This document shows, piece by piece, positions 1,630 to 18,882 of a stretch of DNA of 64,000 nt. The stretch comes from Candidatus Palauibacter polyketidifaciens. GTDB taxonomy: Bacteria; Gemmatimonadota; Gemmatimonadetes; Palauibacterales; Palauibacteraceae. How positions within the stretch are numbered: the first letter of the stretch is position 1; the number at the start of each line of letters is the position of its first letter. The stretch covers positions 1,850 to 65,849 of the forward strand of contig NZ_CANPVO010000011.1 in assembly GCF_947581785.1 (NCBI RefSeq), written 5' to 3'. The notes below the pieces were generated by a model. That model was not told where the DNA came from. It saw only the letters and a program-made list of their open reading frames with translations, and did not search any database. A program made the position numbers and the translations under genes.

Positions 1630-3306
1630 ATGATACGGATGCTCACGGACGTACAGATCGCCGAGGCCGCGACGCCCCGGCCCATACGGGAGATCGGGGA
1701 GAAGATCGGGCTGGGGCTCGAGGAACTCGTCCCCTACGGTCACTACAAAGCGAAGGTCGCCCCGGACTCCATCTTCGAGCGCGAGCCCGGATCGGGCCAG
1801 CTCGTCCTCGTCACGGGCATCACGCCGACGGCCGCGGGCGAGGGCAAGACGACCGTCTCCGTGGGGCTCGCCGACGGCCTGCGCCGCGTGGGGGCGAACT
1901 CGGTGCTCTGCATTCGCGAGCCGAGTCTCGGCCCGGTGTTCGGCGTCAAGGGCGGGGCCGCCGGCGGAGGGTATTCGCAGGTGATCCCGATGGCGGACAT
2001 CAACCTCCACTTCACGGGGGACCTGCACGCGATCACGTCCGCGCACGCGCTCCTTTCCGCCGCCCTGGACAACCACCTGCAGCAGGGGAACCGGCTCGGG
2101 ATCGACACGCGACAGATCACGTGGCGCCGCGCCGTGGACATGAACGACCGGGCGCTCAGGAACATCGTCGTCGGACTCGGGGGACGGATCAACGGGGTGC
2201 CGCGGGAGGACGGCTTCATGATCACGGCCGCCTCGGAGGTGATGGCGATCTTCTGCCTCGCGGCGAGCCTCGAGGACCTCGAGGAGCGGCTGAGCAGCAT
2301 CATCGTGGGGTACGACTACGGCGGCGAGCCCGTGCGGGCGCGCGAACTGAACGTGGCGGGCGCCATGACGCTGCTCCTGCGGGAGGCGATCGGACCGAAC
2401 CTCGTGCAGACGCTCGAGGGGACGCCCGCCTTCGTCCACGGCGGACCCTTCGCGAACATCGCCCACGGCTGCAATTCGCTCATGGCGACGCGGGCCGGGC
2501 TGGCCTTCGGCGATGTCGTGATCACGGAGGCGGGCTTCGGGTCGGACCTCGGCGCCGAGAAGTTCTTCGACATCAAGTGCCGGACCGGCGGACTCAACCC
2601 CGAGGCCACCGTGCTCGTGGCCACGATCCGCGCCCTCAAGTTGCACGGCGGGGGCGACCGCACGGCGCTCTCCACGCCGGACCCCAACGCCGTCCGCGGC
2701 GGGCTCGCGAACCTCGGCGCGCACGTCGAGAACATCCGCGGCTTCGGCATCGAGCCGGTCGTGGCGATCAACGTCTTCGCGACAGACTCCGACGAAGAGA
2801 TCGCGGCCGTGGCCGAGGCGTGCGAGGACCTGGGCGTGCCCTGGGCCCGCTCCGACGGCCACGCGCGGGGCGGCGCCGGCTGCGAAGACCTCGCCCGCGC
2901 GGTCCTCGCGGCGCTCGACGAGGGAGGGGCCGACTTCAAGCCCAAGTACGACGCGGAGGCTTCGATCCGGGACAAGATCGAGGCCATCGCGCGGAAGGTG
3001 TACGGCGCCGACGGGGTCGACTACACGCCGCGCGCCTCGAAGGACGTCGCCCAACTCGAGGCGGCGGGGATCGGGAATACGCCGGTCTGCATCGCGAAGA
3101 CGCCGAACAGCCTGAGCGACGACCCGGCGCGCCTCGGACGGCCGGCCGGCTTCCGCATCACGGTTCAGGACGTGCGCCCCTCGGCGGGGGCGGGCTTCGT
3201 CGTGGCCCGGGCCGGCACCGTCATGACGATGCCGGGACTCCCGCGCGTGCCCGCGGCGGAGGGGATCCGGATCGTCGAGGACGGGAGCGTGGTCGGGCTC
3301 TTCTAG
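1630..3306 (+). CDS. fhs: Formate--tetrahydrofolate ligase (formyltetrahydrofolate synthetase)
   Basis: The N-terminus (TDVQIAEAATPRPIREIGEKIGL...) and the P-loop GEGKTTVSVGL are typical of FTHFS, and the length is about 555 aa. The alternative start at 1639 (MLTDVQ) is equally plausible. Confidence 0.93.
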   Translation: MIRMLTDVQIAEAATPRPIREIGEKIGLGLEELVPYGHYKAKVAPDSIFEREPGSGQLVLVTGITPTAAGEGKTTVSVGLADGLRRVGANSVLCIREPSLGPVFGVKGGAAGGGYSQVIPMADINLHFTGDLHAITSAHALLSAALDNHLQQGNRLGIDTRQITWRRAVDMNDRALRNIVVGLGGRINGVPREDGFMITAASEVMAIFCLAASLEDLEERLSSIIVGYDYGGEPVRARELNVAGAMTLLLREAIGPNLVQTLEGTPAFVHGGPFANIAHGCNSLMATRAGLAFGDVVITEAGFGSDLGAEKFFDIKCRTGGLNPEATVLVATIRALKLHGGGDRTALSTPDPNAVRGGLANLGAHVENIRGFGIEPVVAINVFATDSDEEIAAVAEACEDLGVPWARSDGHARGGAGCEDLARAVLAALDEGGADFKPKYDAEASIRDKIEAIARKVYGADGVDYTPRASKDVAQLEAAGIGNTPVCIAKTPNSLSDDPARLGRPAGFRITVQDVRPSAGAGFVVARAGTVMTMPGLPRVPAAEGIRIVEDGSVVGLF

Positions 3307-3321
3307 TCCCGTGACCGGCTC

Positions 3322-5097
3322 ATGATCGAGATCGAACTCTCCGCGGGTCCCCACACGGAGGACATGGATCGCCGGCTCCGGGAATGGGCCGCCGGGGACG
3401 CGGTGGCGCGCCTCTGGCGGCGGGACCCGACGCTGTGGAGCGCGGACCCGGAGACGCCGGAGTTGGCCGACCGGCTCGGGTGGCTTGAACTCCCGGAGAC
3501 GTCTCCCGCCATGCTCGGTCCGCTCGAGGCGTTGCGCGCGGGCGTGCCCTTCTGGTTCACCGACCTCGTGCTGCTCGGCATGGGGGGCTCCAGCCTCGCG
3601 CCCGAGGTCATCGCGCACACGATGCGGGGCGAGGGGCTGCCGCTCACGCTCGTCGACACCACGCACCCCGGGACGCTCCGCGACCTCGAATGGCTGCGTC
3701 CGGCGAACACGATCTTCGTCGTCTCCAGCAAATCCGGCACGACCGTCGAGACGCTCTCGCTCTTCCGCCACTTCTGGTCGCGGACCGCGGAAGTCGTGGA
3801 CGATCCCGGGGAGCACTTCATCGCGATCACGGACCCCGGATCTCCCCTCGCCGAACTCGGCCGTGAGCGGGGATTCCGGGCGGTGTTCGAAGCGCCCCCC
3901 GACGTGGGCGGCCGCTTCTCCGCCCTGAGCCCCTTCGGTCTCGTGCCGGCGGCTCTGGCCGGCGCCGATGTCGCGGCCCTCCTGGCGGAAGCCGCCGAGG
4001 CCGCGGACGCCTGCAGGGACGACGCCCACCTCAACCCGGGCTTCCTCCTCGGGGCGGCGCTGGGAGAACTCGCGCTCGCGGGGCGCGACAAGGTCACCTT
4101 CGCCGCGGCGTCCGACTGGAACGCGTTTCCCGACTGGGCGGAGCAGCTTCTCGCCGAGAGCACCGGCAAGGAGGGCCGGGGCATCGTACCGGTCGTCGGC
4201 GAGCCCCCGCGGCCGCCGGACGAATACGGCGAGGACCGGGTCTTCGTCGGCCTCCTCCTCGGCGGGGACGCGGCGCGCGAGGCGGAGCAGTGGGGAGAAG
4301 CCGACGAGACCCCGGACCTCCTCGACGCGCTCGAGGCCGCCGGCCACCCGACGCTCCGCATCCGGGTCGAACAGCCCGGGGAACTCGGCGCGCTCTTCTT
4401 CGTGTGGGAGGTCGGCGTGGCCATGGCCGGAGCCGCCCTCGGCATCCACCCCTTCAACCAGCCGGACGTGCAACTCGCCAAGCGCCTCGCGCGCCGCGCG
4501 ATGGCGGGTGACGGCGAGCCGGAGGGCGACCGCGAGCCGGAGGAACGGTCGCCGGGCGTGGAGCCGGCGGAGGATGTGCAGGTCTCCGAGGCGGACGAGA
4601 TCGACCTCGTCTGGGAGTTGCCGCGGTTCGGACACGCCCCGCCCCGCACCCCCGTGACGCCCGACGTGGATGGAATCCGGGAGCGGGTGGAGGAGTTCCT
4701 GGCCGCGGTGGAGTCGACGGACTACATCGCCATACAGGCGTTCCTCGCGGGCGGCGAGGAGGAGGAAGGGCTACTCGCGACGCTGCGCGCGGCCCTGGCC
4801 GGAGCCACGGGGGCGACGACCACGCTGGGCTACGGCCCGCGCTTCCTCCACTCGACCGGGCAGTTGCACAAGGGAGGCGGGGACAACGCCGTCTTCCTCC
4901 AACTCGTCGACGACGCCGGCGAGCACATGCACGTCCCCGAGACCGACTTCACCTTCCGCAGACTGATCCGCGCCCAGGGCCTCGGGGATATCGAAGCGCT
5001 CGGTCGATGCGAACGCCTGGCGCTCCGGGTCCGCGTGGGCGGCCCGGAGGGCCTCGGCCTCCGTCGCCTGATTCAACTCGTCGAGGAGTCCCCCTAG
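3322..5097 (+). CDS. pgi: Glucose-6-phosphate isomerase, long form related to the PGI part of bifunctional transaldolase/PGI proteins
   Basis: The LWRRDPTLWS motif is present near the N-terminus. The SIS/PGI signature GGRFSALS is present, with SSKSGTTVET upstream. The length is 591 aa. Confidence 0.75.
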   Translation: MIEIELSAGPHTEDMDRRLREWAAGDAVARLWRRDPTLWSADPETPELADRLGWLELPETSPAMLGPLEALRAGVPFWFTDLVLLGMGGSSLAPEVIAHTMRGEGLPLTLVDTTHPGTLRDLEWLRPANTIFVVSSKSGTTVETLSLFRHFWSRTAEVVDDPGEHFIAITDPGSPLAELGRERGFRAVFEAPPDVGGRFSALSPFGLVPAALAGADVAALLAEAAEAADACRDDAHLNPGFLLGAALGELALAGRDKVTFAAASDWNAFPDWAEQLLAESTGKEGRGIVPVVGEPPRPPDEYGEDRVFVGLLLGGDAAREAEQWGEADETPDLLDALEAAGHPTLRIRVEQPGELGALFFVWEVGVAMAGAALGIHPFNQPDVQLAKRLARRAMAGDGEPEGDREPEERSPGVEPAEDVQVSEADEIDLVWELPRFGHAPPRTPVTPDVDGIRERVEEFLAAVESTDYIAIQAFLAGGEEEEGLLATLRAALAGATGATTTLGYGPRFLHSTGQLHKGGGDNAVFLQLVDDAGEHMHVPETDFTFRRLIRAQGLGDIEALGRCERLALRVRVGGPEGLGLRRLIQLVEESP

Positions 5098-8849: not shown

Positions 8850-11021
8850 ATGCGGTTCGCAAAGACAATATGGGGTCGGCGGCGGGCGTGGGCGGTCGGG
8901 GTGGCGTGGGGCGTCTCGTTCGCCGCGCTCCCGGTCTCCGCCCAGGAAGCGGGAACCCCGATCGACTACGACGCCGCGATCGCGCAGAGCGGAATCGACG
9001 GCAGCTACGGGTACCTTAGCGCGCTGGAAGGGTCCGCGACGCTCATTCAGGGAGACACCCGGGAGCGCATCCAGCTCTCGGTGAACGAGCCCGTCCTTGT
9101 CGGCGACCGGATCTTCGTGTCCGACGAATCGCGCATCGAGATTCTGCTCGCCGACGGAAACCCCGTTCGGATCGGGGACCGGGCGGAGCTTGTCTTCCGC
9201 GCGCTCGCCAACTCGGCGGATTCGAGCGACCCCGCCTCCATCCTCGAACTCGCGCGCGGATCGCTGCAACTCGTGGTGGCCGCGAATCCGCCGGCGGCCG
9301 AAGGGCCCTCCGTCATCACGCCGAACGCGACGATCCGGCCGCAGGGAGCGGGTGCCTTCCTGATCCTTGTCGACGACGGGGGCCGCAGCGAGATCGTCGT
9401 GCGCGAGGGGGTGGCCGAGGTCACCACGCAGTCCGAACTCGCGGAGGTTCGCCCGGGAGAGAGCCTGTTCGTAGAGGGAGCGCAGGGCGACCGGCTCCGC
9501 TTTGCGGCGGCCCCGGGTCTCCAGCAACTGGAAGCGTGGGGGCGGGGGCTCGCCGACCAGGCGGGCGGCGAGTACGCCGCTCACGTGGACCCGGACCTCC
9601 ACTACGCCGCGTCTTCGCTCGGGGGGCACGGGTCGTGGGTGCAGGTGGACGCGGGGGTCGCGTGGCGTCCGCGGGTGTCCACGGGCTGGGCCCCGTACCG
9701 ACACGGGCGCTGGCGAAACACGCCCAGCGGAATGTTCTGGGTCTCCTACGAGCCGTGGGGCTGGGTTCCCTACCACTACGGGTACTGGGACCTCGATCCG
9801 AACTGGGGCTGGATCTGGTTCCCCGGCCGCCGTTTCGCCGTGGCGCACGTCTACTGGTACTGGGGCCCGAGCTACGCGGGCTGGATTCCGTCGGGATACT
9901 ACTGGCGCCACTACCGGAATTATTACGGGAGCAGTTGGGGCTTCCACTTCGGCGTCTACGGACACATCGGGGGCGGCTTCGGGCGGTATCGGCACTGGAC
10001 GTTCCTGCCGCACGGGCGCCTCGGACACCGGCGACAGCACTTCTACTCGGTGGGCGGTTCGGACTTCGGCCGCGGGCGAAAGGCGGTCGAGCGAGGCGTC
10101 CTGCTGACGGATTCCCGTCTGCTCGGGCGGCAGGCGCAGCGGCGACCCGCGCAGACGCTGGCGAGTCTCAGGCGCGCGGTCTCGCGTGACGGGAGGACGG
10201 CGGTCGATGCGAACGGCTTCATCGATCGCGGCGCGAGCCTGCCGCGGGATGTCGAACGCGTCGTGCTACGGAGCCGCGATGGCCGGTCGGCCCGCCCGCG
10301 CGACGCGACCGCCGGAATGCGGAACGGCACCTCGCGGACGGCCGGTTCGCCGCGTGTTCGCGTGACCACGCGGTCGCCCGAGGCCGGCGCGTTGCGGCTG
10401 GAGCGGTCCGGCGCGCAGGGGACGACGCGGACCGGCGTGCAGCGGGCGACGCCGCCCGCGGACGGGACCGGAGCCCGCCCGGCGATCCGGCGGCCCACGG
10501 CGCGGGCGCGGGATGTGCCCGACGCCGTGAGACGACCGGTCGTGCGGCCCACGACGCGCACGGGTTCCGGCGGCGTACAGCGCGCGTCCCCGCGGACGGG
10601 CGACGACGGCGTTCGTCGGATCGTTCGCCCGCGGACGGCGCGGGAGTCGCCGGCCGTTCGGCGGACGGGAGGCTCGACGACGCGGCCGACGGCACGGTCG
10701 AATTCGGCGAGGCCGACCGTGCGGTCCACGCCGGCGCGACCAGCGGCGCGGCCCACGACGACGAGACCCGTGACCCGGCAACCCGCCCCGCGGTCATCGC
10801 GGCCGGCGGCGCGGCCTTCCGGCCCGTCGAGGTCGAGCGGCACCATCAGTCGTTCCAGCGGCGGGTCCCGATCCGGGGGCACGGTCCGCCGCTCCAGCGG
10901 CAGCTCCCGATCCGGGGGCACGGTCCGCCGCTCCAGCGGTAGCTCCCGATCCGGGGGCGCGGTCCGCCGCTCGGGTGGCAGCTCCCGATCCGGAGGTGCC
11001 GTTCGCCGATCGGGCGGCTAG
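8850..11021 (+). CDS. Secreted FecR-domain protein with a Trp/Tyr-rich repeat region and an Arg/Ser/Thr/Pro-rich low-complexity C-terminal tail
   Basis: Signal peptide present. A FecR-like segment follows (LIQGDTRERIQLSVNEPVLVGDRIFV...). An aromatic repeat region follows (WAPYRHGRWRN...YEPWGWVPYHYGYWDLDPNWGWIWFPG). Beyond that, roughly 300 aa are rich in Arg, Ser, Thr and Pro. Confidence 0.7.
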   Translation: MRFAKTIWGRRRAWAVGVAWGVSFAALPVSAQEAGTPIDYDAAIAQSGIDGSYGYLSALEGSATLIQGDTRERIQLSVNEPVLVGDRIFVSDESRIEILLADGNPVRIGDRAELVFRALANSADSSDPASILELARGSLQLVVAANPPAAEGPSVITPNATIRPQGAGAFLILVDDGGRSEIVVREGVAEVTTQSELAEVRPGESLFVEGAQGDRLRFAAAPGLQQLEAWGRGLADQAGGEYAAHVDPDLHYAASSLGGHGSWVQVDAGVAWRPRVSTGWAPYRHGRWRNTPSGMFWVSYEPWGWVPYHYGYWDLDPNWGWIWFPGRRFAVAHVYWYWGPSYAGWIPSGYYWRHYRNYYGSSWGFHFGVYGHIGGGFGRYRHWTFLPHGRLGHRRQHFYSVGGSDFGRGRKAVERGVLLTDSRLLGRQAQRRPAQTLASLRRAVSRDGRTAVDANGFIDRGASLPRDVERVVLRSRDGRSARPRDATAGMRNGTSRTAGSPRVRVTTRSPEAGALRLERSGAQGTTRTGVQRATPPADGTGARPAIRRPTARARDVPDAVRRPVVRPTTRTGSGGVQRASPRTGDDGVRRIVRPRTARESPAVRRTGGSTTRPTARSNSARPTVRSTPARPAARPTTTRPVTRQPAPRSSRPAARPSGPSRSSGTISRSSGGSRSGGTVRRSSGSSRSGGTVRRSSGSSRSGGAVRRSGGSSRSGGAVRRSGG
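10862..11017 (+). repeat. Four tandem copies of a 39-bp coding repeat (tccagcggcagctcccgatccgggggcacggtccgccgc), each encoding SSGSSRSGG(T/A)VRR, forming the C-terminus of the preceding CDS
   Basis: Read directly. Copies A to D differ at only 1-4 nt each, with a partial copy upstream (10841-10861). Confidence 0.85.
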
Positions 11022-11033
11022 CAGTCCGAGAGA

Positions 11034-11603
11034 TCAGGAATCCGGCCACACGGCCGGGTCCCGCTCCATCTCCGGCTCCGGTTCGACGCCGAGCGCCTCG
11101 ACCATGCGGACGTAGTAGTTGAAGAAGCCGACGACTTCGGTCGCGGTCAGGATCTGCGCGTCGGTCCAGCCGACCTCTCGCAACTCGTCGATGTCCCGCC
11201 GGGCTGTGGAGGTCGGGTCGCGCGTGATCGCCACGGCATAGTCCATCAGGCGGCGCGTCTTTTCGTCGAGCCCCGCCGTCCGGTAGTCGGCGCGGATCGC
11301 GCCGGCCAGTTCAGCGTCTCCAGTGGCCTGACGGAGATCCTCTCCGTGCGCCTCCGTTCAGTAGAAACAGTCCAGTTCGCGCGAGGTCACGGTCGCGAGC
11401 ATCTCGCGCACGTCCCGCGCCAGCGGTCCCGGCGCCAGCATCAACGCCTCGTAGAGCTGGATCGAGGCGCGCATGACGGGCGGGTTCAGGCTCTGGATGC
11501 CGATCACGTTGAAGACGCGCCCCGCGCGGCGGACGGCCTTCTCGTACTCGCGGGCCACGAGCCCTTTCGCTTCGTCGGGAGCTACCGTCTCGATATGCGG
11601 CAT
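11034..11603 (-). CDS. AhpD/carboxymuconolactone-decarboxylase-family peroxidase-related protein with an in-frame TGA at the conserved CxxC position (C-F-Y-U-T-E-A-H), i.e. a candidate selenoprotein. The ORF caller split it into two ORFs (11358..11603 and 11034..11246).
   Basis: Both fragments are on the same strand and in the same frame. A single TGA (11358-11360) sits between ...SRELDCFY and TEAHGEDLRQATGDAELAGAIRADYRTAGLDEKTRRLMDYAVAITRD..., giving the CMD-family CxxU/C...H redox motif. Joined, the protein is 189 aa. Confidence 0.6.
11318..11357 (-). ncRNA. Candidate bacterial SECIS-like hairpin immediately 3' of the in-frame UGA (mRNA: ACGGAGGCGCACGGAGAGGAUCUCCGUCAGG...)
   Basis: ACGGAG...CUCCGU can pair (6 bp) with an internal GGAGA/UCUCC helix. 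This was folded by eye only. Confidence 0.25.
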
Positions 11604-11663
11604 GCCGCCTCCTGTGGGCGATGGATCCGGGGTGCGAGTCAGCTCATCGGCGGAACCGGCTCC

Positions 11664-13911: not shown

Positions 13912-14985
13912 CTATCGGTAGTTCTCCATCAGGGCGTCCAGCGCCTCGGATCCCGGACACAACTCCTCGAAGGGAAGGTCCCACAGCGGCCGGTCGACCG
14001 TCCCCAGCACGTCGTGCAGGTCCCTCGACTCCGGGTCCACGTAGAGGAGCCCGGTCGGAACCTCTCCCGCGTTCTGCCGTTCGCGCAGGTAGCCGTACAC
14101 GGCGTCCCGGTCGGTCGCGTCGTAGTCGCCCTCCACCTGCCGGAAGCGGATCACGCTGCCGTCGTGCATGCGGACGTCGCGCACATCGGCGGACGCGATG
14201 TCGGCCGTGATCTCATCGGCCGGGGGGACGAAGTCCTTCGGGGCGACGAACGCCGCCTCGACGGCCTCGCGAAAGTGCTCGCGCGTGTAGGCGTAGCTCT
14301 TCGTCGAACCCACATGGTCGTTGAACGTCACGCAGGGCGAGATGACATCGACGAGGGCGAGGCCCGGGTGCCGGATTCCCGCCTTGATGATGGGGACGAG
14401 CTGGTCCTTGTCGCCGGAGAAGCCCCGGGCGACGAAGGTCGCGCCGATCGAAAGTCCGAGCAGGGCGGGATCGATGGGGGGCTGTTCGTTCGACACGCCC
14501 CGCTTCGACTTCGAGCCCATGTCGGCCGAGGCGGAGAACTGGCCCTTCGTCAGGCCGTAGACCCCGTTGTTCTCGATGATGTAGAGGAGGTTGAGGTTGC
14601 GCCGCACCGCGTGGCACAGCTGCCCGAGCCCGATCGAGAGCGAGTCCCCGTCTCCGGAGACGCCGACGTAAACGAGGTCGCGGTTCGCGGCGTTCGCTCC
14701 GCTCGCGACCGACGGCATCCGCCCGTGCACGCTGTTGAAGCCGTGGGATTCGGACATGAAGTAGGCGGTCGTCTTCGACGAGCAGCCGATCCCGCTCATC
14801 TTCGCGGCCCGGTGCGTCGGGATCGCGAGTTCCCACGCCGCCTCGATGAGCGCGGCGGTGACGGAATCGTGACCGCACCCCGCGCACAGGGTGGACATCA
14901 CGCCCTCGTAGTCGCGCCGCGTCAGCCCGAGTTCGTTCTTCTCCAGGCTCGGGTGGAAGACCCGCGGCTTGGCGATGTACGTCAT
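13912..14985 (-). CDS. korB: 2-oxoacid:ferredoxin oxidoreductase beta subunit (TPP-binding)
   Basis: CAGCGHDSV, GIGCSS, and the TPP motif GDGDSLSIGLGQLCH...NNGVYGLTKGQ are present. Confidence 0.9.
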   Translation of the reverse strand: MTYIAKPRVFHPSLEKNELGLTRRDYEGVMSTLCAGCGHDSVTAALIEAAWELAIPTHRAAKMSGIGCSSKTTAYFMSESHGFNSVHGRMPSVASGANAANRDLVYVGVSGDGDSLSIGLGQLCHAVRRNLNLLYIIENNGVYGLTKGQFSASADMGSKSKRGVSNEQPPIDPALLGLSIGATFVARGFSGDKDQLVPIIKAGIRHPGLALVDVISPCVTFNDHVGSTKSYAYTREHFREAVEAAFVAPKDFVPPADEITADIASADVRDVRMHDGSVIRFRQVEGDYDATDRDAVYGYLRERQNAGEVPTGLLYVDPESRDLHDVLGTVDRPLWDLPFEELCPGSEALDALMENYR

Positions 14986-16823
14986 GCACCCACTCCTTCC
15001 GCGGTCTCCGCCGTGAGCCCGAGGCGGTCCTTCACGCCCGCGATGACGTGGCGCGCGCTCAGCGGGAGCCCCCCGTAGCGGAGGACCGAGGCCAGCCGTT
15101 CCTTCGAGGCCGGCGTCTCCAGCGTGAGCAGCGACTTCAACTGCGCGTCCCGGTTCTGTTCGATGACGATGTTGAGGTCGTGCGCCTCGATGAAGCGTCC
15201 GACTTCGGGCGCGAAGGGGAAGGCGCGGATCCGCATGTAGTCGAGCCGGAGCCCGTCTTCCGCCTCCATGCGCTCGATGGCCTCGCGCACCGCGCCGTCG
15301 CAGGCGCCCAGCGTGATGAGCCCGTATCGCGCGTCCGGCCGCGAGCGGATCTCCGGGGCCGGCACGGCCTCCGCGGCGTTGTCGATCTTCACCGCGATGC
15401 GGTCGATGACCTCCTGGTACTCGTCCGGCTCCTCAGTGTACTTGCCGTACTTCGTGTGGCCGGAGCCGCGCGTGAAGTAGGCGCCCTTCGGATCCTCGCC
15501 CGGGATCGTCCGATACGGGATCCCGTCCCCGTCCACGTCGAGGTAGCGATAGAACGTCTCGATCTCCGCGAGCGCCTCCGAGTCGAGCACCTTCCCGCGA
15601 TCCGGCCGGTACGCGTCATCCCACTCGAAGCGGGGCACGACCCAGTCGTTCATCCCGATGTCGAGGTCGGAGAGCACGAAGATGGGCGTCTGGAAGCGTT
15701 CCGCGAGGTCGAACGCGTGCACGCTGAACTCGAAGCACTCCGCCGGGTCCTTCGGGTAGAGGCAGACGTGTTTCGTGTCTCCGTGCGAGGCGTAGGCGCA
15801 GAGGAGGATGTCGCCCTGCTGGGTGCGCGTCGGCATGCCGGTCGAGGGGCCGACGCGCTCGACGTCGAAGAAGACGCACGGGACTTCGGCGTAGTAGGCG
15901 AGCCCGATGAACTCGGTCATGAGCGAGATCCCGGCCCCGCTCGTCGCCGTGAAGGCCCGGGCTCCGGCCCACCCCGCGCCGATCGTGATGCCCGCCGCCG
16001 CGAGTTCGTCCTCCGCCTGCAGGATCGCCGCCCGGCTCCGCCCGGTCCCGTCCTCGACGCGCAGCCGCCGGCAATAGGCCGTGAAGGCGTCGACGAGCGA
16101 GGTCGAGGGGGTGATCGGGTACCAGGCCGCGACCGTCGCGCCCGCGTAGACGCAGCCGAGCGCCGCCGCCGTGTTGCCGTCGATGAGAATCGAGTCGCGC
16201 GTGGCGTCCATCCCCTCGAGCCGGATCGGCAGGGGGCACTCGAAGTTCTCCGTCGCGTAGTCGTGGCCGAGCCGGATCGCCTCGAAGTTGGCGTCGAGGA
16301 GGTGGCGCTTCCTCTCGCCGAAGGTCTCCTCGAGCAGTCCGCGGATCACCGCCATGTCGATGTCGAGGAGGGCGGCGAGCGCGCCCGTATAGGCGATGTT
16401 CTTCATCAGGATGCGCGTGCGGCCGCCGTCAAAGGTCTTCACGCACATCTCGGCCAGCGGGACGCCGAGGAAGGTCACCTCCTCGCGCCGCAGCGTGTCC
16501 GCCATGGGCCAGCTCGAGTCGTACAGCAGCCAGCCGCCAGGGACGAGTTCCTCGATGTCCTGGGCGTAGGTCTCCGGGTTCATCGCCACGATGAGGTCGA
16601 AGTCCGGCGTGCGCGCGACGTGGCCCGACCCGTTCACGCGGATCTCGTACCAGGTGGGAAGGCCCTGGATGTTCGACGGAAAGACGTTCTTCCCCGACAC
16701 CGGGACCCCCATCCGGAAGATCGACTGCATGATGAGCCCGTTGGCGCTCGCGGAGCCCGTCCCGTTCACGGTGCCGATCTTGAGCGCGAAGTCGTTCACG
16801 CGGCCGGTCTTCATTTCGGGCAT
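14982..16823 (-). CDS. korA: 2-oxoacid:ferredoxin oxidoreductase alpha subunit
   Basis: N-terminus GTVNGTGSASANGLIMQSIFRMGVPVSGKNVFPSNIQGLPTWYEIRV is typical of KorA. Start-stop overlap with korB. Confidence 0.9.
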   Translation of the reverse strand: MPEMKTGRVNDFALKIGTVNGTGSASANGLIMQSIFRMGVPVSGKNVFPSNIQGLPTWYEIRVNGSGHVARTPDFDLIVAMNPETYAQDIEELVPGGWLLYDSSWPMADTLRREEVTFLGVPLAEMCVKTFDGGRTRILMKNIAYTGALAALLDIDMAVIRGLLEETFGERKRHLLDANFEAIRLGHDYATENFECPLPIRLEGMDATRDSILIDGNTAAALGCVYAGATVAAWYPITPSTSLVDAFTAYCRRLRVEDGTGRSRAAILQAEDELAAAGITIGAGWAGARAFTATSGAGISLMTEFIGLAYYAEVPCVFFDVERVGPSTGMPTRTQQGDILLCAYASHGDTKHVCLYPKDPAECFEFSVHAFDLAERFQTPIFVLSDLDIGMNDWVVPRFEWDDAYRPDRGKVLDSEALAEIETFYRYLDVDGDGIPYRTIPGEDPKGAYFTRGSGHTKYGKYTEEPDEYQEVIDRIAVKIDNAAEAVPAPEIRSRPDARYGLITLGACDGAVREAIERMEAEDGLRLDYMRIRAFPFAPEVGRFIEAHDLNIVIEQNRDAQLKSLLTLETPASKERLASVLRYGGLPLSARHVIAGVKDRLGLTAETAEGVGA

Positions 16824-16827
16824 TCCG

Positions 16828-18666
16828 TCAGGGAGTCACCGAAACGAAGCCGCCCGGCGACATCTCCTCGATTCCCATTCCGGAGTAGGGATGCTCCGCG
16901 TCCTGGCCGGCGTACGGCTTGAGCAGATCGAAGGTCCGCATGTCCCAGGCCGCCGTCGGACAGCGCTCCGCGCACAGCCCGCAGTGGATGCAGAGGTCCT
17001 CGTCCTTCACCATGACGCGGGAGGTCTGCGGCAGCGGCTCGGAGACGTAGATGTCCTGCTCCGCGTTCTCGGCGGGCGCGGTGAGCCGCGTGCGGAGTTC
17101 CGCCTCCGCCCCGTTGTGGGTGATCGTGAGACAGCTGAGGGGACAGATGTCGATGCAGGCGTCGCACTCGATGCACAGGCTCCCCGTGAAGTGCGTCTGA
17201 ATGTCGCAGTTCAGGCAGCGCTCGACCTCGGTCAGCGTCTGCTCGATGTCGAACCCCTCCTCGACTTCCGTCTCGATGCTCTGGAGGCGCTCCTCGAGGC
17301 GGACGTGCCGCATCTTCCGGCGGGCCGCGTACTCGTAGTCGTTCGAGTAGCTCCACTCGTGGAGGCCCATCTTGGCGCTCACGAGGTTCATGTGCTCGGG
17401 CGGGCGCTTCCGGAGGTCCTCGCCACGGCAGTAGGCGTGGATGGAGATCGCCGCCTGGTGCCCGTGCTCGGCCGCCCAGATGATGTTCTCCGGGCCCCAC
17501 GCCGCGTCGCCGCCGAAGAAGACGCCCTCGCGCGTGGACATGAACGTCGTGCGGTCGACGACGGCTTCGCGCCACTTGTTGAAATCGATCCCCGCATCGT
17601 CCTCGATCCAGGGGAAGGCGGTCTCCTGCCCAATGGCGAGGATGACGGCCTCCGCGGGGAAGAACGCCTCGTCGAGCTTGGTCGAGACGAGCCGCCCCTC
17701 GTCGTTCTCGTGCCATTCCACGATGTCGAAGTTCATCCCCTTGAGGACGCCGTCCTCGATGACGAACTCCGTGGGCGAGTGGTTCTCGACGATGTCGACG
17801 AGTTCCTCTTCCGCGTCCTCGAGTTCCCAGGGGGAGGCCTTGAAGTACGGCTTCGACTTTCGGGCCATGACCTTGACGTTCGTGCCGCCGATCCGCTTCG
17901 AGGTGCGGCAGCAGTCCATCGCGGTGTTCCCGACGCCGATGACGAGGACGTTCTCCTCGATCGTGTTCGTGTGCCCGAAGGCGACGGATTCGAGCCAGTC
18001 GATGCCGATGTAGATGTGGTCGGTGTCGTACCGGCCCGGCAGGCGAAGTTCCTTGCCGCGCGGGGCGCCGGAGCCGACGAAGACGGCGTCGAAGTCCTGC
18101 TCCAGCAGCCACTTCATGCTCTCGACGGGCGCGTTGTAGCGGATGTCGACGCCCATGTCGAGGATGTAGTCGATCTCCTCCCACAGCACTTCCGGGGGCA
18201 GGCGGAACTGCGGAATGTTCGTCCACATGAGACCGCCGGGGCGGTCGTTCTTCTCGAAGATCGTGACCTCGTAGCCGAGCGGCATGAGGTCTCGGGCGAC
18301 GGTCAGCGACGCCGGGCCCGCGCCCACGCAGGCGATCCGCTTCCCGTTCTTCTGCTTCGGGATGTCGGGGAAGCGGGGAGTGATGTCGCCCCTGAGGTCG
18401 GCGGCGACGCGCTTGAGGCGGCAGATCGCGACCGGCTTCTCCTCGACCCGTACGCGCCGGCACGCGGGCTCGCAGGGGCGGTCGCACGTCCGGCCGAGGA
18501 TGCCCGGAAAGACGTTCGACTCCCAGTTGAGCATGTAGGCGTCGTCGTACCGTTCCTGCGCGATGAGGCGGATGTAACCCGGTACGTTGGTGTGAGCCGG
18601 GCAGGCCCACTGGCAATCCACGACTTTGTGGTAGTAGTCGGGATTCCCGACGTTTGTTGGCTCCAC
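16828..18666 (-). CDS. GltD/DPD-like NAD(P)H:FAD oxidoreductase (N-terminal Fe-S domain plus FAD/NAD(P) Rossmann folds) fused to a C-terminal 2x[4Fe-4S] ferredoxin domain
   Basis: N-terminal Fe-S motif CQWACPAHTNVPGYI...CDRPCEPAC. Rossmann motifs IACVGAGPASLTVARDL and VLVIGVGNTAMDC. The C-terminus has CLNCD...CIECDACIDICP and CIHCGLCAERCP. It sits 4 bp upstream of korA. Confidence 0.8.
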   Translation of the reverse strand: MEPTNVGNPDYYHKVVDCQWACPAHTNVPGYIRLIAQERYDDAYMLNWESNVFPGILGRTCDRPCEPACRRVRVEEKPVAICRLKRVAADLRGDITPRFPDIPKQKNGKRIACVGAGPASLTVARDLMPLGYEVTIFEKNDRPGGLMWTNIPQFRLPPEVLWEEIDYILDMGVDIRYNAPVESMKWLLEQDFDAVFVGSGAPRGKELRLPGRYDTDHIYIGIDWLESVAFGHTNTIEENVLVIGVGNTAMDCCRTSKRIGGTNVKVMARKSKPYFKASPWELEDAEEELVDIVENHSPTEFVIEDGVLKGMNFDIVEWHENDEGRLVSTKLDEAFFPAEAVILAIGQETAFPWIEDDAGIDFNKWREAVVDRTTFMSTREGVFFGGDAAWGPENIIWAAEHGHQAAISIHAYCRGEDLRKRPPEHMNLVSAKMGLHEWSYSNDYEYAARRKMRHVRLEERLQSIETEVEEGFDIEQTLTEVERCLNCDIQTHFTGSLCIECDACIDICPLSCLTITHNGAEAELRTRLTAPAENAEQDIYVSEPLPQTSRVMVKDEDLCIHCGLCAERCPTAAWDMRTFDLLKPYAGQDAEHPYSGMGIEEMSPGGFVSVTP

Positions 18667-18882
18667 CGTTTCTCCTCGGGCTTACCCCGCCCGACAGGCG
18701 CTCCGTTCCCCGGCCCGTGAGTCGCTTGGAGACATAACCGCCCGCAATCGTAGGGGACGAGGGGGATTGTCGCCAGTTCTTCGTTGCGCCGGCGGGAGTG
18801 GCGGCGGGCGCGGCGCGGGACGGGCGGCGGGCGCGGCGGGCGGATCGTTGCTGCGGCGCCCGCAGCCGCGGAAGTTGAGCGC

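What the first reader, a model, noticed from the sequence alone, without database searches (positions are those of the whole stretch)
11034..11603. AhpD-family gene with in-frame UGA at the redox CxxC position: candidate selenoprotein split by the ORF caller
The two minus-strand ORFs 11358..11603 and 11034..11246 are in the same frame. They are separated by exactly one TGA that falls in the motif ...ELDCFY-[UGA]-TEAHGE..., reproducing the carboxymuconolactone-decarboxylase/AhpD C-x-x-C-x-x-x-H active site with the second Cys replaced by Sec (C-x-x-U). AhpD-like selenoproteins are an established family. A standard annotation pipeline would call this a pseudogene or two fragments. A hairpin-capable sequence (ACGGAG...GGAGAGGAUCUCCGU) lies immediately 3' of the UGA, where a bacterial SECIS must be.
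Basis: partly seen in the sequence, partly recalled or inferred. Interest (0 to 1): 0.65.

Follow-up and report, generated by a model that had tools for sequence, protein, structure and literature searches.

The report
AhpD-like selenoprotein gene, known family
This is one intact 189-codon gene for an AhpD-like redox protein whose in-frame UGA almost certainly encodes selenocysteine, an ordinary member of a selenoprotein family known since 2005 that gene callers split into two pieces.

Summary
On the minus strand, 11603..11034 is one 189-codon frame. It has a single internal TGA (11360..11358) in the motif E67-x11-C79-F-Y81-[UGA82]-T-E-A-H86. With Cys in place of the UGA, the protein matches NCBIfam TIGR01926 (peroxidase-related enzyme) at 129 bits against a cutoff of 81.8. 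A 2026 review lists that model as the "AhpD-like protein, CxxU" selenoprotein family. All 83 related loci I fetched, from several phyla, have TGA at the same position. The Cys-containing relatives and the solved structures have Cys there. dN/dS in the 37 codons just after the UGA is 0.14-0.33 against the five closest relatives, so that stretch is translated. A 7-bp hairpin with a GGA loop starts 10 nt after the UGA. It needs rare codons (about 0.3% expected from the peptide alone), is 98.8% paired in 23 relatives and shows one compensatory change. In 12 actinobacterial relatives the gene sits next to selB and/or selA, and tRNA-Sec is also present in 8 of them. The Sec machinery of the window's own genome (a Palauibacter-like Gemmatimonadota) could not be checked, and none lies in the 64 kb. 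Verdict: real, well explained, not novel, low interest.

The parts
11034..11603 (-). Complete AhpD-like (TIGR01926 / COG2128 type) selenoprotein gene: ATG 11603..11601, 189 codons including Sec82, terminal TGA 11036..11034.
   Evidence: single frame, one internal TGA. Pfam CMD PF02627, E 9.6e-11. TIGR01926, 129.1 bits against cutoff 81.8, model positions 3-178 of 178. GC3 0.83 and 0.86 on the two sides of the TGA; dN/dS 0.03-0.33 in all three segments against the five closest relatives.
11358..11360 (-). In-frame UGA, codon 82, predicted selenocysteine (the U of C-F-Y-U).
   Evidence: TGA at the aligned position in all 83 homologous loci. Cys (UGC) in P0001/L084 and P0002/L085; aligned with Cys in PDB 2oyo and 2pfx.
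11331..11347 (-). Predicted bacterial SECIS core hairpin: ACGGAGA (11347..11341), loop GGA (11340..11338), UCUCCGU (11337..11331). A 10-nt spacer follows the UGA. It overlaps codons H86-G-E-D-L-R91.
   Evidence: folds in the window and in all HGEDLR-type relatives; 98.8% of cells paired against 29-58% when the partner is slid, with C15-G29 changed to U-A in 2 sequences; about 0.003 expected from the peptide and the window's codon usage; synonymous columns 21, 24 and 27 are invariant while columns 6, 12, 33, 36 and 39 use all four bases.
11321..11356 (-). Possible extended lower stem around the core hairpin (nt 5-7 with 38-40 and nt 9-11 with 34-36). It is predicted in the closest relatives L003-L007 and in weakened form or not at all beyond them.
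   Evidence: minimum-free-energy structures of the window and L003-L012. Covariation was not tested, so this is weak.
11346..11405 (-). Active-site segment E67-x11-C79-x-Y81-U82-x3-H86, the AhpD-type proton-relay and redox motif.
   Evidence: E67, C79, Y81 and H86 are invariant in alignment A2. (PMC3141380): same spacing as M. tuberculosis AhpD E118/C130/H132/C133/H137 and P. aeruginosa PA0269 E36/C48/Y50/C51/H55.
11608..11613 (-). Shine-Dalgarno-like AGGAGG, 4 nt upstream of the ATG.
   Evidence: Read directly from the sequence. The N-terminus M-P-H-I-E-T is conserved in relatives.

Best explanation
The region is one gene for a roughly 21-kDa AhpD-like (carboxymuconolactone-decarboxylase fold, TIGR01926/COG2128 type) thiol-selenol oxidoreductase.

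During translation, UGA82 is not read as a stop. The hairpin that begins 10 nt downstream (ACGGAGA-GGA-UCUCCGU) acts as a bacterial SECIS. It recruits the elongation factor SelB carrying Sec-tRNA(Sec), and selenocysteine is inserted. Translation then continues for 107 more codons to the true UGA stop at 11036..11034.

In the protein, Sec82 takes the place of the second cysteine of the AhpD C-x-x-C motif. It sits in the conserved relay E67 / C79 / Y81 / U82 / H86. It would cycle between the selenol and a selenenylsulfide with C79, either to reduce a peroxiredoxin-type partner or to reduce peroxide directly.

Shown here: the single frame, family membership, UGA-for-Cys alignment, purifying selection across the UGA, and conservation and covariation of the hairpin. 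Inferred: actual Sec insertion, SelB binding, and the biochemical substrate.
For: Gene and family:
- The frame is continuous with one internal TGA.
- TIGR01926 scores 129 bits against a cutoff of 81.8 over the full model length. Pfam CMD also matches.

UGA position in relatives:
- All 83 related loci carry TGA at the aligned codon. They include Gemmatimonadota, Acidobacteriota, Actinomycetota, Planctomycetota, Chloroflexota and Myxococcota. The query used Cys at that position, so the ranking was biased against TGA forms.
- 'W' at this position in database proteins P0004 and P0006 is TGA in their DNA.
- Cys sits at this position in P0001 and P0002 and in solved structures 2oyo and 2pfx.

Translation through the UGA:
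- dN/dS for codons 83-119, which no alternative start could cover, is 0.14-0.33 against L004-L008. That is the same range as the N- and C-terminal parts.
- 18 of 27 confident ORFs in the window end in TGA, so UGA is not a general sense codon here.

Hairpin:
- All 84 sequences form one of two in-register hairpins.
- Class A, which includes the window, is 98.8% paired with a C-G to U-A double change. Class B is 94.1% paired with 2 covarying pairs.
- The window's hairpin needs the rare codons GGA (0.14), GAU (0.19) and CGU (0.06), giving a product of about 0.003.

Sec machinery in relatives:
- A tRNA-Sec gene lies within 3 kb upstream of the orthologue in 8 loci.
- selB and/or selA lie within 3 kb downstream in 12 loci. 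The query sequences were validated against PDB 3u0o and 8uzw.

Literature:
- AhpD-like protein, CxxU, COG2128/TIGR01926 (PMC1088965, PMC2398784, PMC13188914).
- The Cys relative DR1765 (PDB 6k40) protects D. radiodurans from H2O2, and its CxxC cysteines matter for that (PMC8945050).
Against: - No selA, selB, selD or tRNA-Sec lies in the 64-kb window or in the +/-3 kb around the Palauibacter-type orthologues L004-L008. The rest of this genome could not be searched.
- The reviews I searched do not mention Gemmatimonadota as users of Sec.
- The hairpin's folding energy is not exceptional for this G+C content (z = -0.94).
- The hairpin overlaps a conserved peptide (HGEDLR), which limits how much covariation can appear. 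Only one pair shows a double change, in 2 of 23 sequences.
- The close Cys homologue L085 keeps the same hairpin, so the Sec/Cys contrast is not a clean control.
- There is no protein-level evidence.
Confidence: 0.9

Rival explanations
1. The gene is a decaying pseudogene, or two independent small ORFs. On this view the UGA terminates translation, giving an 81-aa N-terminal fragment and possibly a separate 70-aa product from the ATG at 11246.
For: Gene callers annotate it this way. No Sec machinery was seen in the window.
Against: - The same TGA is kept in all 83 relatives across phyla, with the downstream frame intact.
- Codons 83-119, which neither fragment would cover, have dN/dS of 0.14-0.33.
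- The catalytic His86 and the C-terminal half of the TIGR01926 domain lie after the UGA.
- GC3 stays at coding level across the junction.
Confidence: 0.03
2. UGA82 is read through without selenium. Possible routes are near-cognate Trp or Cys insertion, or Cys carried on tRNA(Sec). The hairpin would then only slow termination.
For: Cys is functionally acceptable at this site, since P0001 and P0002 have it. Sec insertion itself was not observed here.
Against: - Eight orthologous loci carry tRNA-Sec and twelve carry selB and/or selA next to the gene. That ties this UGA to the dedicated Sec pathway.
- If Cys were the intended residue, a single-base change from UGA to UGC or UGU would be favoured. 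Yet the UGA is retained in all 80 of the best-matching genome loci.
- UGA is the main terminator in this window.
Confidence: 0.05
3. The TGA is a sequencing or assembly error for TGC or TGT.
For: None specific. It is a generic possibility for a metagenome-assembled sequence.
Against: - The identical 81-aa fragment ending at this TGA is recorded on 6 independent contigs from different assemblies.
- Five Palauibacter-type genomes at 81-94% identity carry the same codon.
Confidence: 0.01

Closest known systems
AhpD-like selenoprotein family (COG2128 / NCBIfam TIGR01926, 'AhpD-like 1', CxxU), described by Zhang, Fomenko and Gladyshev 2005 (Sargasso Sea) and Zhang and Gladyshev 2008 (GOS).
   Same: - Full-length match to TIGR01926 above its cutoff.
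- CxxU motif with Sec at the second Cys position.
- Hairpin with G in a small apical loop just 3' of the UGA.
- Cys homologues exist.
- Marine or host-associated origin.
   Different: Nothing substantive. This copy comes from a Palauibacter-like Gemmatimonadota, a phylum the selenoproteome papers I could search do not mention. Its SECIS is the nt 14-30 'class A' form, whereas most relatives fetched here use a hairpin at nt 22-39.
DR1765 of Deinococcus radiodurans (PDB 6k40) and the structural-genomics proteins 2oyo, 2pfx, 3c1l and 2prr ('uncharacterized peroxidase-related protein').
   Same: Same subfamily (E 3e-24 to 5e-18 over nearly the full length) and the same C-x-Y-C-x-x-x-H-G active-site segment. 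Loss of DR1765 sensitises cells to H2O2, and its CxxC cysteines matter for complementation (PMC8945050).
   Different: These proteins all have Cys where the window has UGA/Sec. No Sec form has been solved or assayed.
Mycobacterium tuberculosis AhpD (Rv2429).
   Same: Same fold superfamily and the same relay spacing: E-x11-C-x-(H/Y)-C-x3-H (PMC3141380). Likely the same chemistry, with a dithiol/disulfide or selenol/selenenylsulfide shuttling electrons to a peroxiredoxin.
   Different: Sequence similarity is very low: MtAhpD was not among the PDB hits at E <= 0.01. Its motif lies in the C-terminal helices of a longer protein. No AhpC gene is adjacent here, and a lipoamide-dependent partner has not been shown.
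NF041238 AhpD_rel_CFYUT ('hypothetical protein 1' of the Sargasso Sea).
   Same: It shares the literal C-F-Y-U-T motif and the CMD-type domain.
   Different: That model is 357 positions long, and the window protein matches only positions 218-341 at 46.7 bits against a cutoff of 175. It is a different, longer family, and the window protein is not a member.

Membership tests
AhpD-like selenoprotein (TIGR01926 / COG2128, CxxU) | Full-length match to the family model above the curated cutoff. | tested here: met
   TIGR01926, 129.1 bits against cutoff 81.8, residues 4-178 on model positions 3-178 of 178. The review PMC13188914 maps 'AhpD-like protein' to TIGR01926.
AhpD-like selenoprotein (TIGR01926 / COG2128, CxxU) | In-frame UGA at the second Cys of the CxxC redox motif, aligned with Cys in homologues. 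| tested here: met
   TGA in all 83 loci. Cys in P0001, P0002, 2oyo and 2pfx.
AhpD-like selenoprotein (TIGR01926 / COG2128, CxxU) | The reading frame is conserved and under purifying selection downstream of the UGA. | tested here: met
   dN/dS 0.14-0.33 for codons 83-119 and 0.11-0.20 for codons 120-189, against L004-L008.
Bacterial selenoprotein gene in general | A SECIS stem-loop directly 3' of the UGA, with a small apical loop containing G (criterion as worded in PMC1088965). | tested here: met
   A 7-bp stem with a GGA loop and a 10-nt spacer, conserved in 23 relatives, with a codon-bias expectation of about 0.003. bSECISearch itself was not available. The numerical limits of its model are from my memory and were not checked.
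Bacterial selenoprotein gene in general | The genome encodes selA, selB, selD and tRNA-Sec. | not testable with these tools
   None lies in the 64-kb window. Indirect support: tRNA-Sec, selB and selA flank the orthologue in 12 actinobacterial loci.
Bacterial selenoprotein gene in general | Selenium is actually incorporated at the UGA. | not testable with these tools
   This needs 75Se labelling or mass spectrometry.
AhpD / CMD superfamily (Pfam PF02627) | CMD domain match and the relay residues Glu, Cys, (His/Tyr), Cys and His with canonical spacing. | tested here: met
   PF02627, 42 bits against cutoff 23. E67, C79, Y81 and H86 are invariant; the spacing equals that of MtAhpD and PA0269.
NF041238 AhpD_rel_CFYUT | A score above the model cutoff over the 357-position model. 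| tested here: not met
   46.7 bits against cutoff 175, with only model positions 218-341 matched.

The most novel reading that the evidence does not exclude
The AhpD-like (TIGR01926) protein may be the main or even the only selenoprotein that keeps the Sec-decoding trait alive in certain high-G+C lineages: Palauibacterales (Gemmatimonadota) and the Gaiellales/Thermoleophilia. In the latter group the gene is physically embedded between tRNA-Sec and selB-selA. That placement would hint at co-inheritance with, or a functional tie to, selenium metabolism itself rather than generic peroxide defence. It would also make this a first explicit record of Sec use in Palauibacterales. Nothing here tests whether other selenoproteins exist in these genomes.
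Probability: 0.2. Interest if true: 0.4.

Novelty: new member of a known kind. Interest (0 to 1): 0.2.

Why it matters
The main value is for annotation. In public records of this organism the gene is stored as two meaningless fragments of 81 and 70 aa, so its redox function and the organism's dependence on selenium are invisible. Recognising it adds a selenium requirement to the physiology of Palauibacter-type Gemmatimonadota, which have not been cultured. It does not change what is known about selenoproteins.

Tried and rejected
- Folding energy as evidence for a SECIS: the 71 nt after the UGA fold no better than shuffles (z = -0.94). I rejected this as a criterion in 70% G+C DNA and used conservation, covariation and codon bias instead.
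- Cys homologues as a negative control for the hairpin: not clean. L085 keeps the hairpin and L084 has one mismatch. I read this as a remnant SECIS of the kind described in PMC1794560, but it weakens the test.
- Rfam (no hit) and ARAGORN (no tRNA) on the window.
- tblastn of E. coli SelD, SelA and SelB against the window: nothing better than E 0.65. The SelD and SelA queries came from memory and were then validated against PDB 3u0o and 8uzw. The SelB query was validated only indirectly, by its strong hits in the loci.
- A search for other in-frame-TGA candidates in the window: none besides 11360.
- Exact look-up of the neighbouring Pro_racemase product to find the source contig failed, probably because the start codon differs. 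The 81-aa fragment look-up succeeded.
- A literature search for Sec use in Gemmatimonadota or Palauibacter found nothing relevant.
- NF041238 ('CFYUT') membership was considered because of the identical motif and rejected on score and length.
- Structure prediction was not run. Full-length PDB sequence matches at E around 1e-24 already fix the fold.

Full report
**What is in the sequence.**
On the minus strand an ATG at 11603 is preceded by AGGAGG at 11613..11608. It opens a frame that runs to a TGA at 11036..11034 and has exactly one internal stop, TGA at 11360..11358. The ORF lister reports the two halves separately, as 11358..11603 (81 aa) and 11034..11246 (70 aa, counted from the next ATG).

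The peptide around the stop is ...REMLATVTSRELDCFY-[UGA]-TEAHGEDLRQ.... Third-position G+C is 0.83 before and 0.86 after the TGA. A systematic screen found no other in-frame TGA in the 64 kb with a coding signature and 60 stop-free codons on both sides.

**Family.**
With Cys written at codon 82, the 189-aa product matches Pfam CMD (PF02627, E 9.6e-11). It matches NCBIfam TIGR01926 'peroxidase-related enzyme' over the model's whole length at 129.1 bits, against a cutoff of 81.8.

It does not belong to NF041238 'AhpD_rel_CFYUT', although it shares the literal CFYUT motif. The score is 46.7 bits against a cutoff of 175, and only a third of that 357-position model is matched.

The closest solved structures are Cys-containing 'uncharacterized peroxidase-related proteins' 2oyo, 2pfx, 3c1l and 2prr, and D. 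radiodurans DR1765 (6k40). E-values run from 3e-24 to 5e-18. In the two alignments printed (2oyo and 2pfx) the UGA falls on the second Cys of C-x-Y-C-x-x-x-H-G.

E67, C79, Y81 and H86 are invariant in my alignment of 11 relatives. They have the spacing of the AhpD proton relay: E118/C130/H132/C133/H137 in M. tuberculosis AhpD and E36/C48/Y50/C51/H55 in P. aeruginosa PA0269 (PMC3141380).

**Is the UGA a coding position?**
A protein search returned three kinds of relatives:
- Full-length proteins with Cys at the site. P0001 and P0002, at 59% and 57% identity, read CFYCTEAHGEDLR.
- Proteins cut exactly at ...CFY, or starting just after it.
- Proteins with 'W' at the site.

The DNA of two 'W' proteins shows that the W is a TGA read under a different code table by the gene caller.

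A scan of one genome per species returned 80 loci. Together with three metagenome loci, all 83 carry TGA at the aligned codon with the downstream frame intact. The query had Cys there, so Cys forms would have scored higher. The result is not a ranking artefact.

The loci come from Gemmatimonadota, Acidobacteriota/Terriglobia, Actinomycetota (Gaiellaceae, Acidimicrobiia, Thermoleophilia), Planctomycetota, Chloroflexota, Myxococcota, Verrucomicrobiota and others.

Against the five closest relatives (Palauibacter-type MAGs, 81-94% amino-acid identity), Nei-Gojobori dN/dS is 0.14-0.33 for codons 83-119. That stretch lies between the UGA and the next possible start. The N-terminal part gives 0.03-0.17 and the C-terminal part 0.11-0.20. 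The stretch directly after the UGA is therefore translated in this frame in this lineage.

UGA is not a general sense codon here, because 18 of 27 confident ORFs in the window end in TGA.

**The SECIS.**
Folding energy alone says nothing in this 70% G+C DNA (z = -0.94). Comparison across relatives is informative.

Counting from the U of UGA, every one of the 84 sequences forms one of two in-register hairpins:
- Class A pairs nt 14-20 with nt 24-30, as ACGGAGA-GGA-UCUCCGU over the peptide H-G-E-D-L-R. It occurs in the window and 22 distinct relatives.
- Class B pairs nt 22-27 with nt 34-39, as GACCUC-N6-GAGGUC over D-L-R-x-E-V.

Class A is 98.8% paired, against 29-58% when the 3' partners are slid. 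In L034 and L053 the C15-G29 pair is replaced by U-A. That takes a synonymous His change plus an Arg-to-His change. Class B is 94.1% paired, with two covarying pairs and five double-change cells.

Within class A the synonymous columns 21, 24 and 27 are invariant and column 30 is U in 21 of 23 sequences. Synonymous columns outside the stem (6, 12, 33, 36, 39) use all four bases.

In the window the stem needs GGA (Gly usage 0.14), GAU (Asp 0.19) and CGU (Arg 0.06). Given the peptide and the window's own codon usage, the expected frequency of the hairpin is about 0.003.

The hairpin is 7 bp with a 3-nt loop that begins with G, and it lies 10 nt after the UGA. [quoted passage not shown] It also resembles the roughly 11-nt spacing of the E. 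coli fdhF minimal element, which I recall from memory.

One caveat applies. The Cys homologue L085 keeps the hairpin and L084 has one mismatch in it. This looks like the remnant SECIS described for recent Sec-to-Cys conversions (PMC1794560, Figure 4). It also means the Sec/Cys contrast is not a clean control.

**Sec machinery.**
The window has no tRNA gene and no Rfam hit at gathering thresholds. tblastn with E. coli SelD, SelA and SelB found nothing.

The flanks of the relatives are more informative. ARAGORN finds tRNA-Sec (anticodon tca) within 3 kb upstream of the AhpD-like gene in 8 loci: L029, L039, L040, L046, L047, L061, L063 and L066. tblastn finds selB and/or selA within 3 kb downstream in 12 loci, with E-values from 1e-27 to 1e-96. 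In L063, for example, the order is tRNA-Sec 2810-2902 (-), AhpD-like 3001-3534 (+), selB about 5272-4232 (-) and selA about 6391-5330 (-).

This ties the UGA gene family to the dedicated Sec pathway. All 12 loci are actinobacterial, however. The machinery of the window's own genome therefore remains untested, which is the one open refutation criterion.

**Origin and annotation.**
The 81-aa fragment is recorded on six contigs. Two of them are NCBI GCA_009841005.1 (contig VXMR01000151.1, 99.7% identical to the window over 2246 nt) and an ENA scaffold (99.9%). In both, the gene is called as two products of 81 and 70 aa between a Pro_racemase-family gene and a FecR/DUF6600 gene.

The best species-level matches are Candidatus Palauibacter and other Gemmatimonadota MAGs. 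The Palauibacterales description paper does not discuss selenium.

**Comparison with what is known.**
'AhpD-like protein' (COG2128, CxxU) was reported as a new selenoprotein family from the Sargasso Sea in 2005, with 27 sequences (PMC1088965). As 'AhpD-like 1' it had 299 sequences and was among the most abundant families in the Global Ocean Sampling (GOS) marine metagenome survey (PMC2398784). A 2026 review lists it under TIGR01926 (PMC13188914), which is the model matched here.

The biochemical function of the Sec form is unknown. The nearest studied Cys relative, DR1765, protects against H2O2, and its CxxC cysteines matter for that (PMC8945050). By analogy with M. tuberculosis AhpD, the second Cys is the attacking nucleophile and the first resolves the intermediate. 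That assignment is from my memory of Koshkin et al. 2003 and was not checked here. It would explain why Sec replaces that particular Cys.

**Verdict.**
The gene is an intact member of an established selenoprotein family that ordinary gene callers mis-split. Confidence that it is a Sec-decoded gene is about 0.9. What remains is the unverified sel machinery of this genome and the absence of protein data. It is a new member of a known kind, and its interest is low (0.2).

Two side observations are modestly interesting: the two SECIS registers within one family, and the gene's position inside the selC-selB-selA cluster in Gaiellales-type genomes.

Noticed in passing
L063 2810-6391. Also L021, L023, L026, L029, L035, L039, L040, L046, L047, L061 and L066.: In actinobacterial (Gaiellaceae/Thermoleophilia-type) MAGs the AhpD-like UGA gene lies inside the Sec-machinery cluster. 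tRNA-Sec is upstream on the opposite strand, and selB then selA are downstream on the opposite strand. I do not know whether this arrangement has been described.
   Followed up: partly
Alignments A3 and A4 (nt 1-45 from the UGA in the window and L001-L083).: One protein family uses two different SECIS hairpins in different registers: nt 14-30 over HGEDLR and nt 22-39 over DLRxEV. The shared Leu codon CUC serves as the 3' arm in one and the 5' arm in the other. The Asp codon is GAU in all 23 class A sequences. In class B it is GAC in 31 of the 34 aligned sequences, and GAU in L073 and L077 (paired with AUC) and in L082.
   Followed up: partly
L085 1364-1912 and L084 115-669.: The Cys-containing close homologues (CFYCTEAHGEDLR and CFYCMEAHGEDLR) still carry the class A hairpin. 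It is intact in L085 and has one mismatch in L084. This looks like a remnant SECIS after a Sec-to-Cys conversion.
   Followed up: partly
Window 10854-10993 (+ strand; ORF 8850-11021).: A 39-nt tandem repeat of 3.6 copies at 92% match encodes SSGSSRSGGTVRR-type repeats. They form the C-terminus of a convergent FecR/DUF6600 protein that ends 13 nt from the AhpD-like stop codon.
   Followed up: partly
L003 31-384.: In this ENA scaffold (97% identical in the shared part), the first roughly 55 residues of the AhpD-like gene are replaced by a SpoU_methylase-like segment. This is probably an assembly chimera or a local rearrangement.
   Followed up: no
L002 276-905.: The gene caller read TGA as Trp and so ran past the true stop, a second TGA after ...RPWGEG, adding about 16 spurious residues. 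Several 'W' proteins in the database are artefacts of this kind.
   Followed up: partly
Window 13912-18681 (- strand).: Three adjacent genes lie 2.3 kb upstream of the AhpD-like gene on the same strand. Two encode 2-oxoacid:ferredoxin oxidoreductase-type subunits (POR/POR_N and TPP_enzyme_C). The third encodes a Pyr_redox_2/4Fe-4S protein. No link to the AhpD-like gene was tested.
   Followed up: no
L031 and L032 (both from MAG CAVVIB01).: Two copies of the AhpD-like UGA gene sit on different contigs of one MAG. They differ at 1 of the 54 nt after the UGA. This is either a recent duplication or an assembly redundancy.
   Followed up: no
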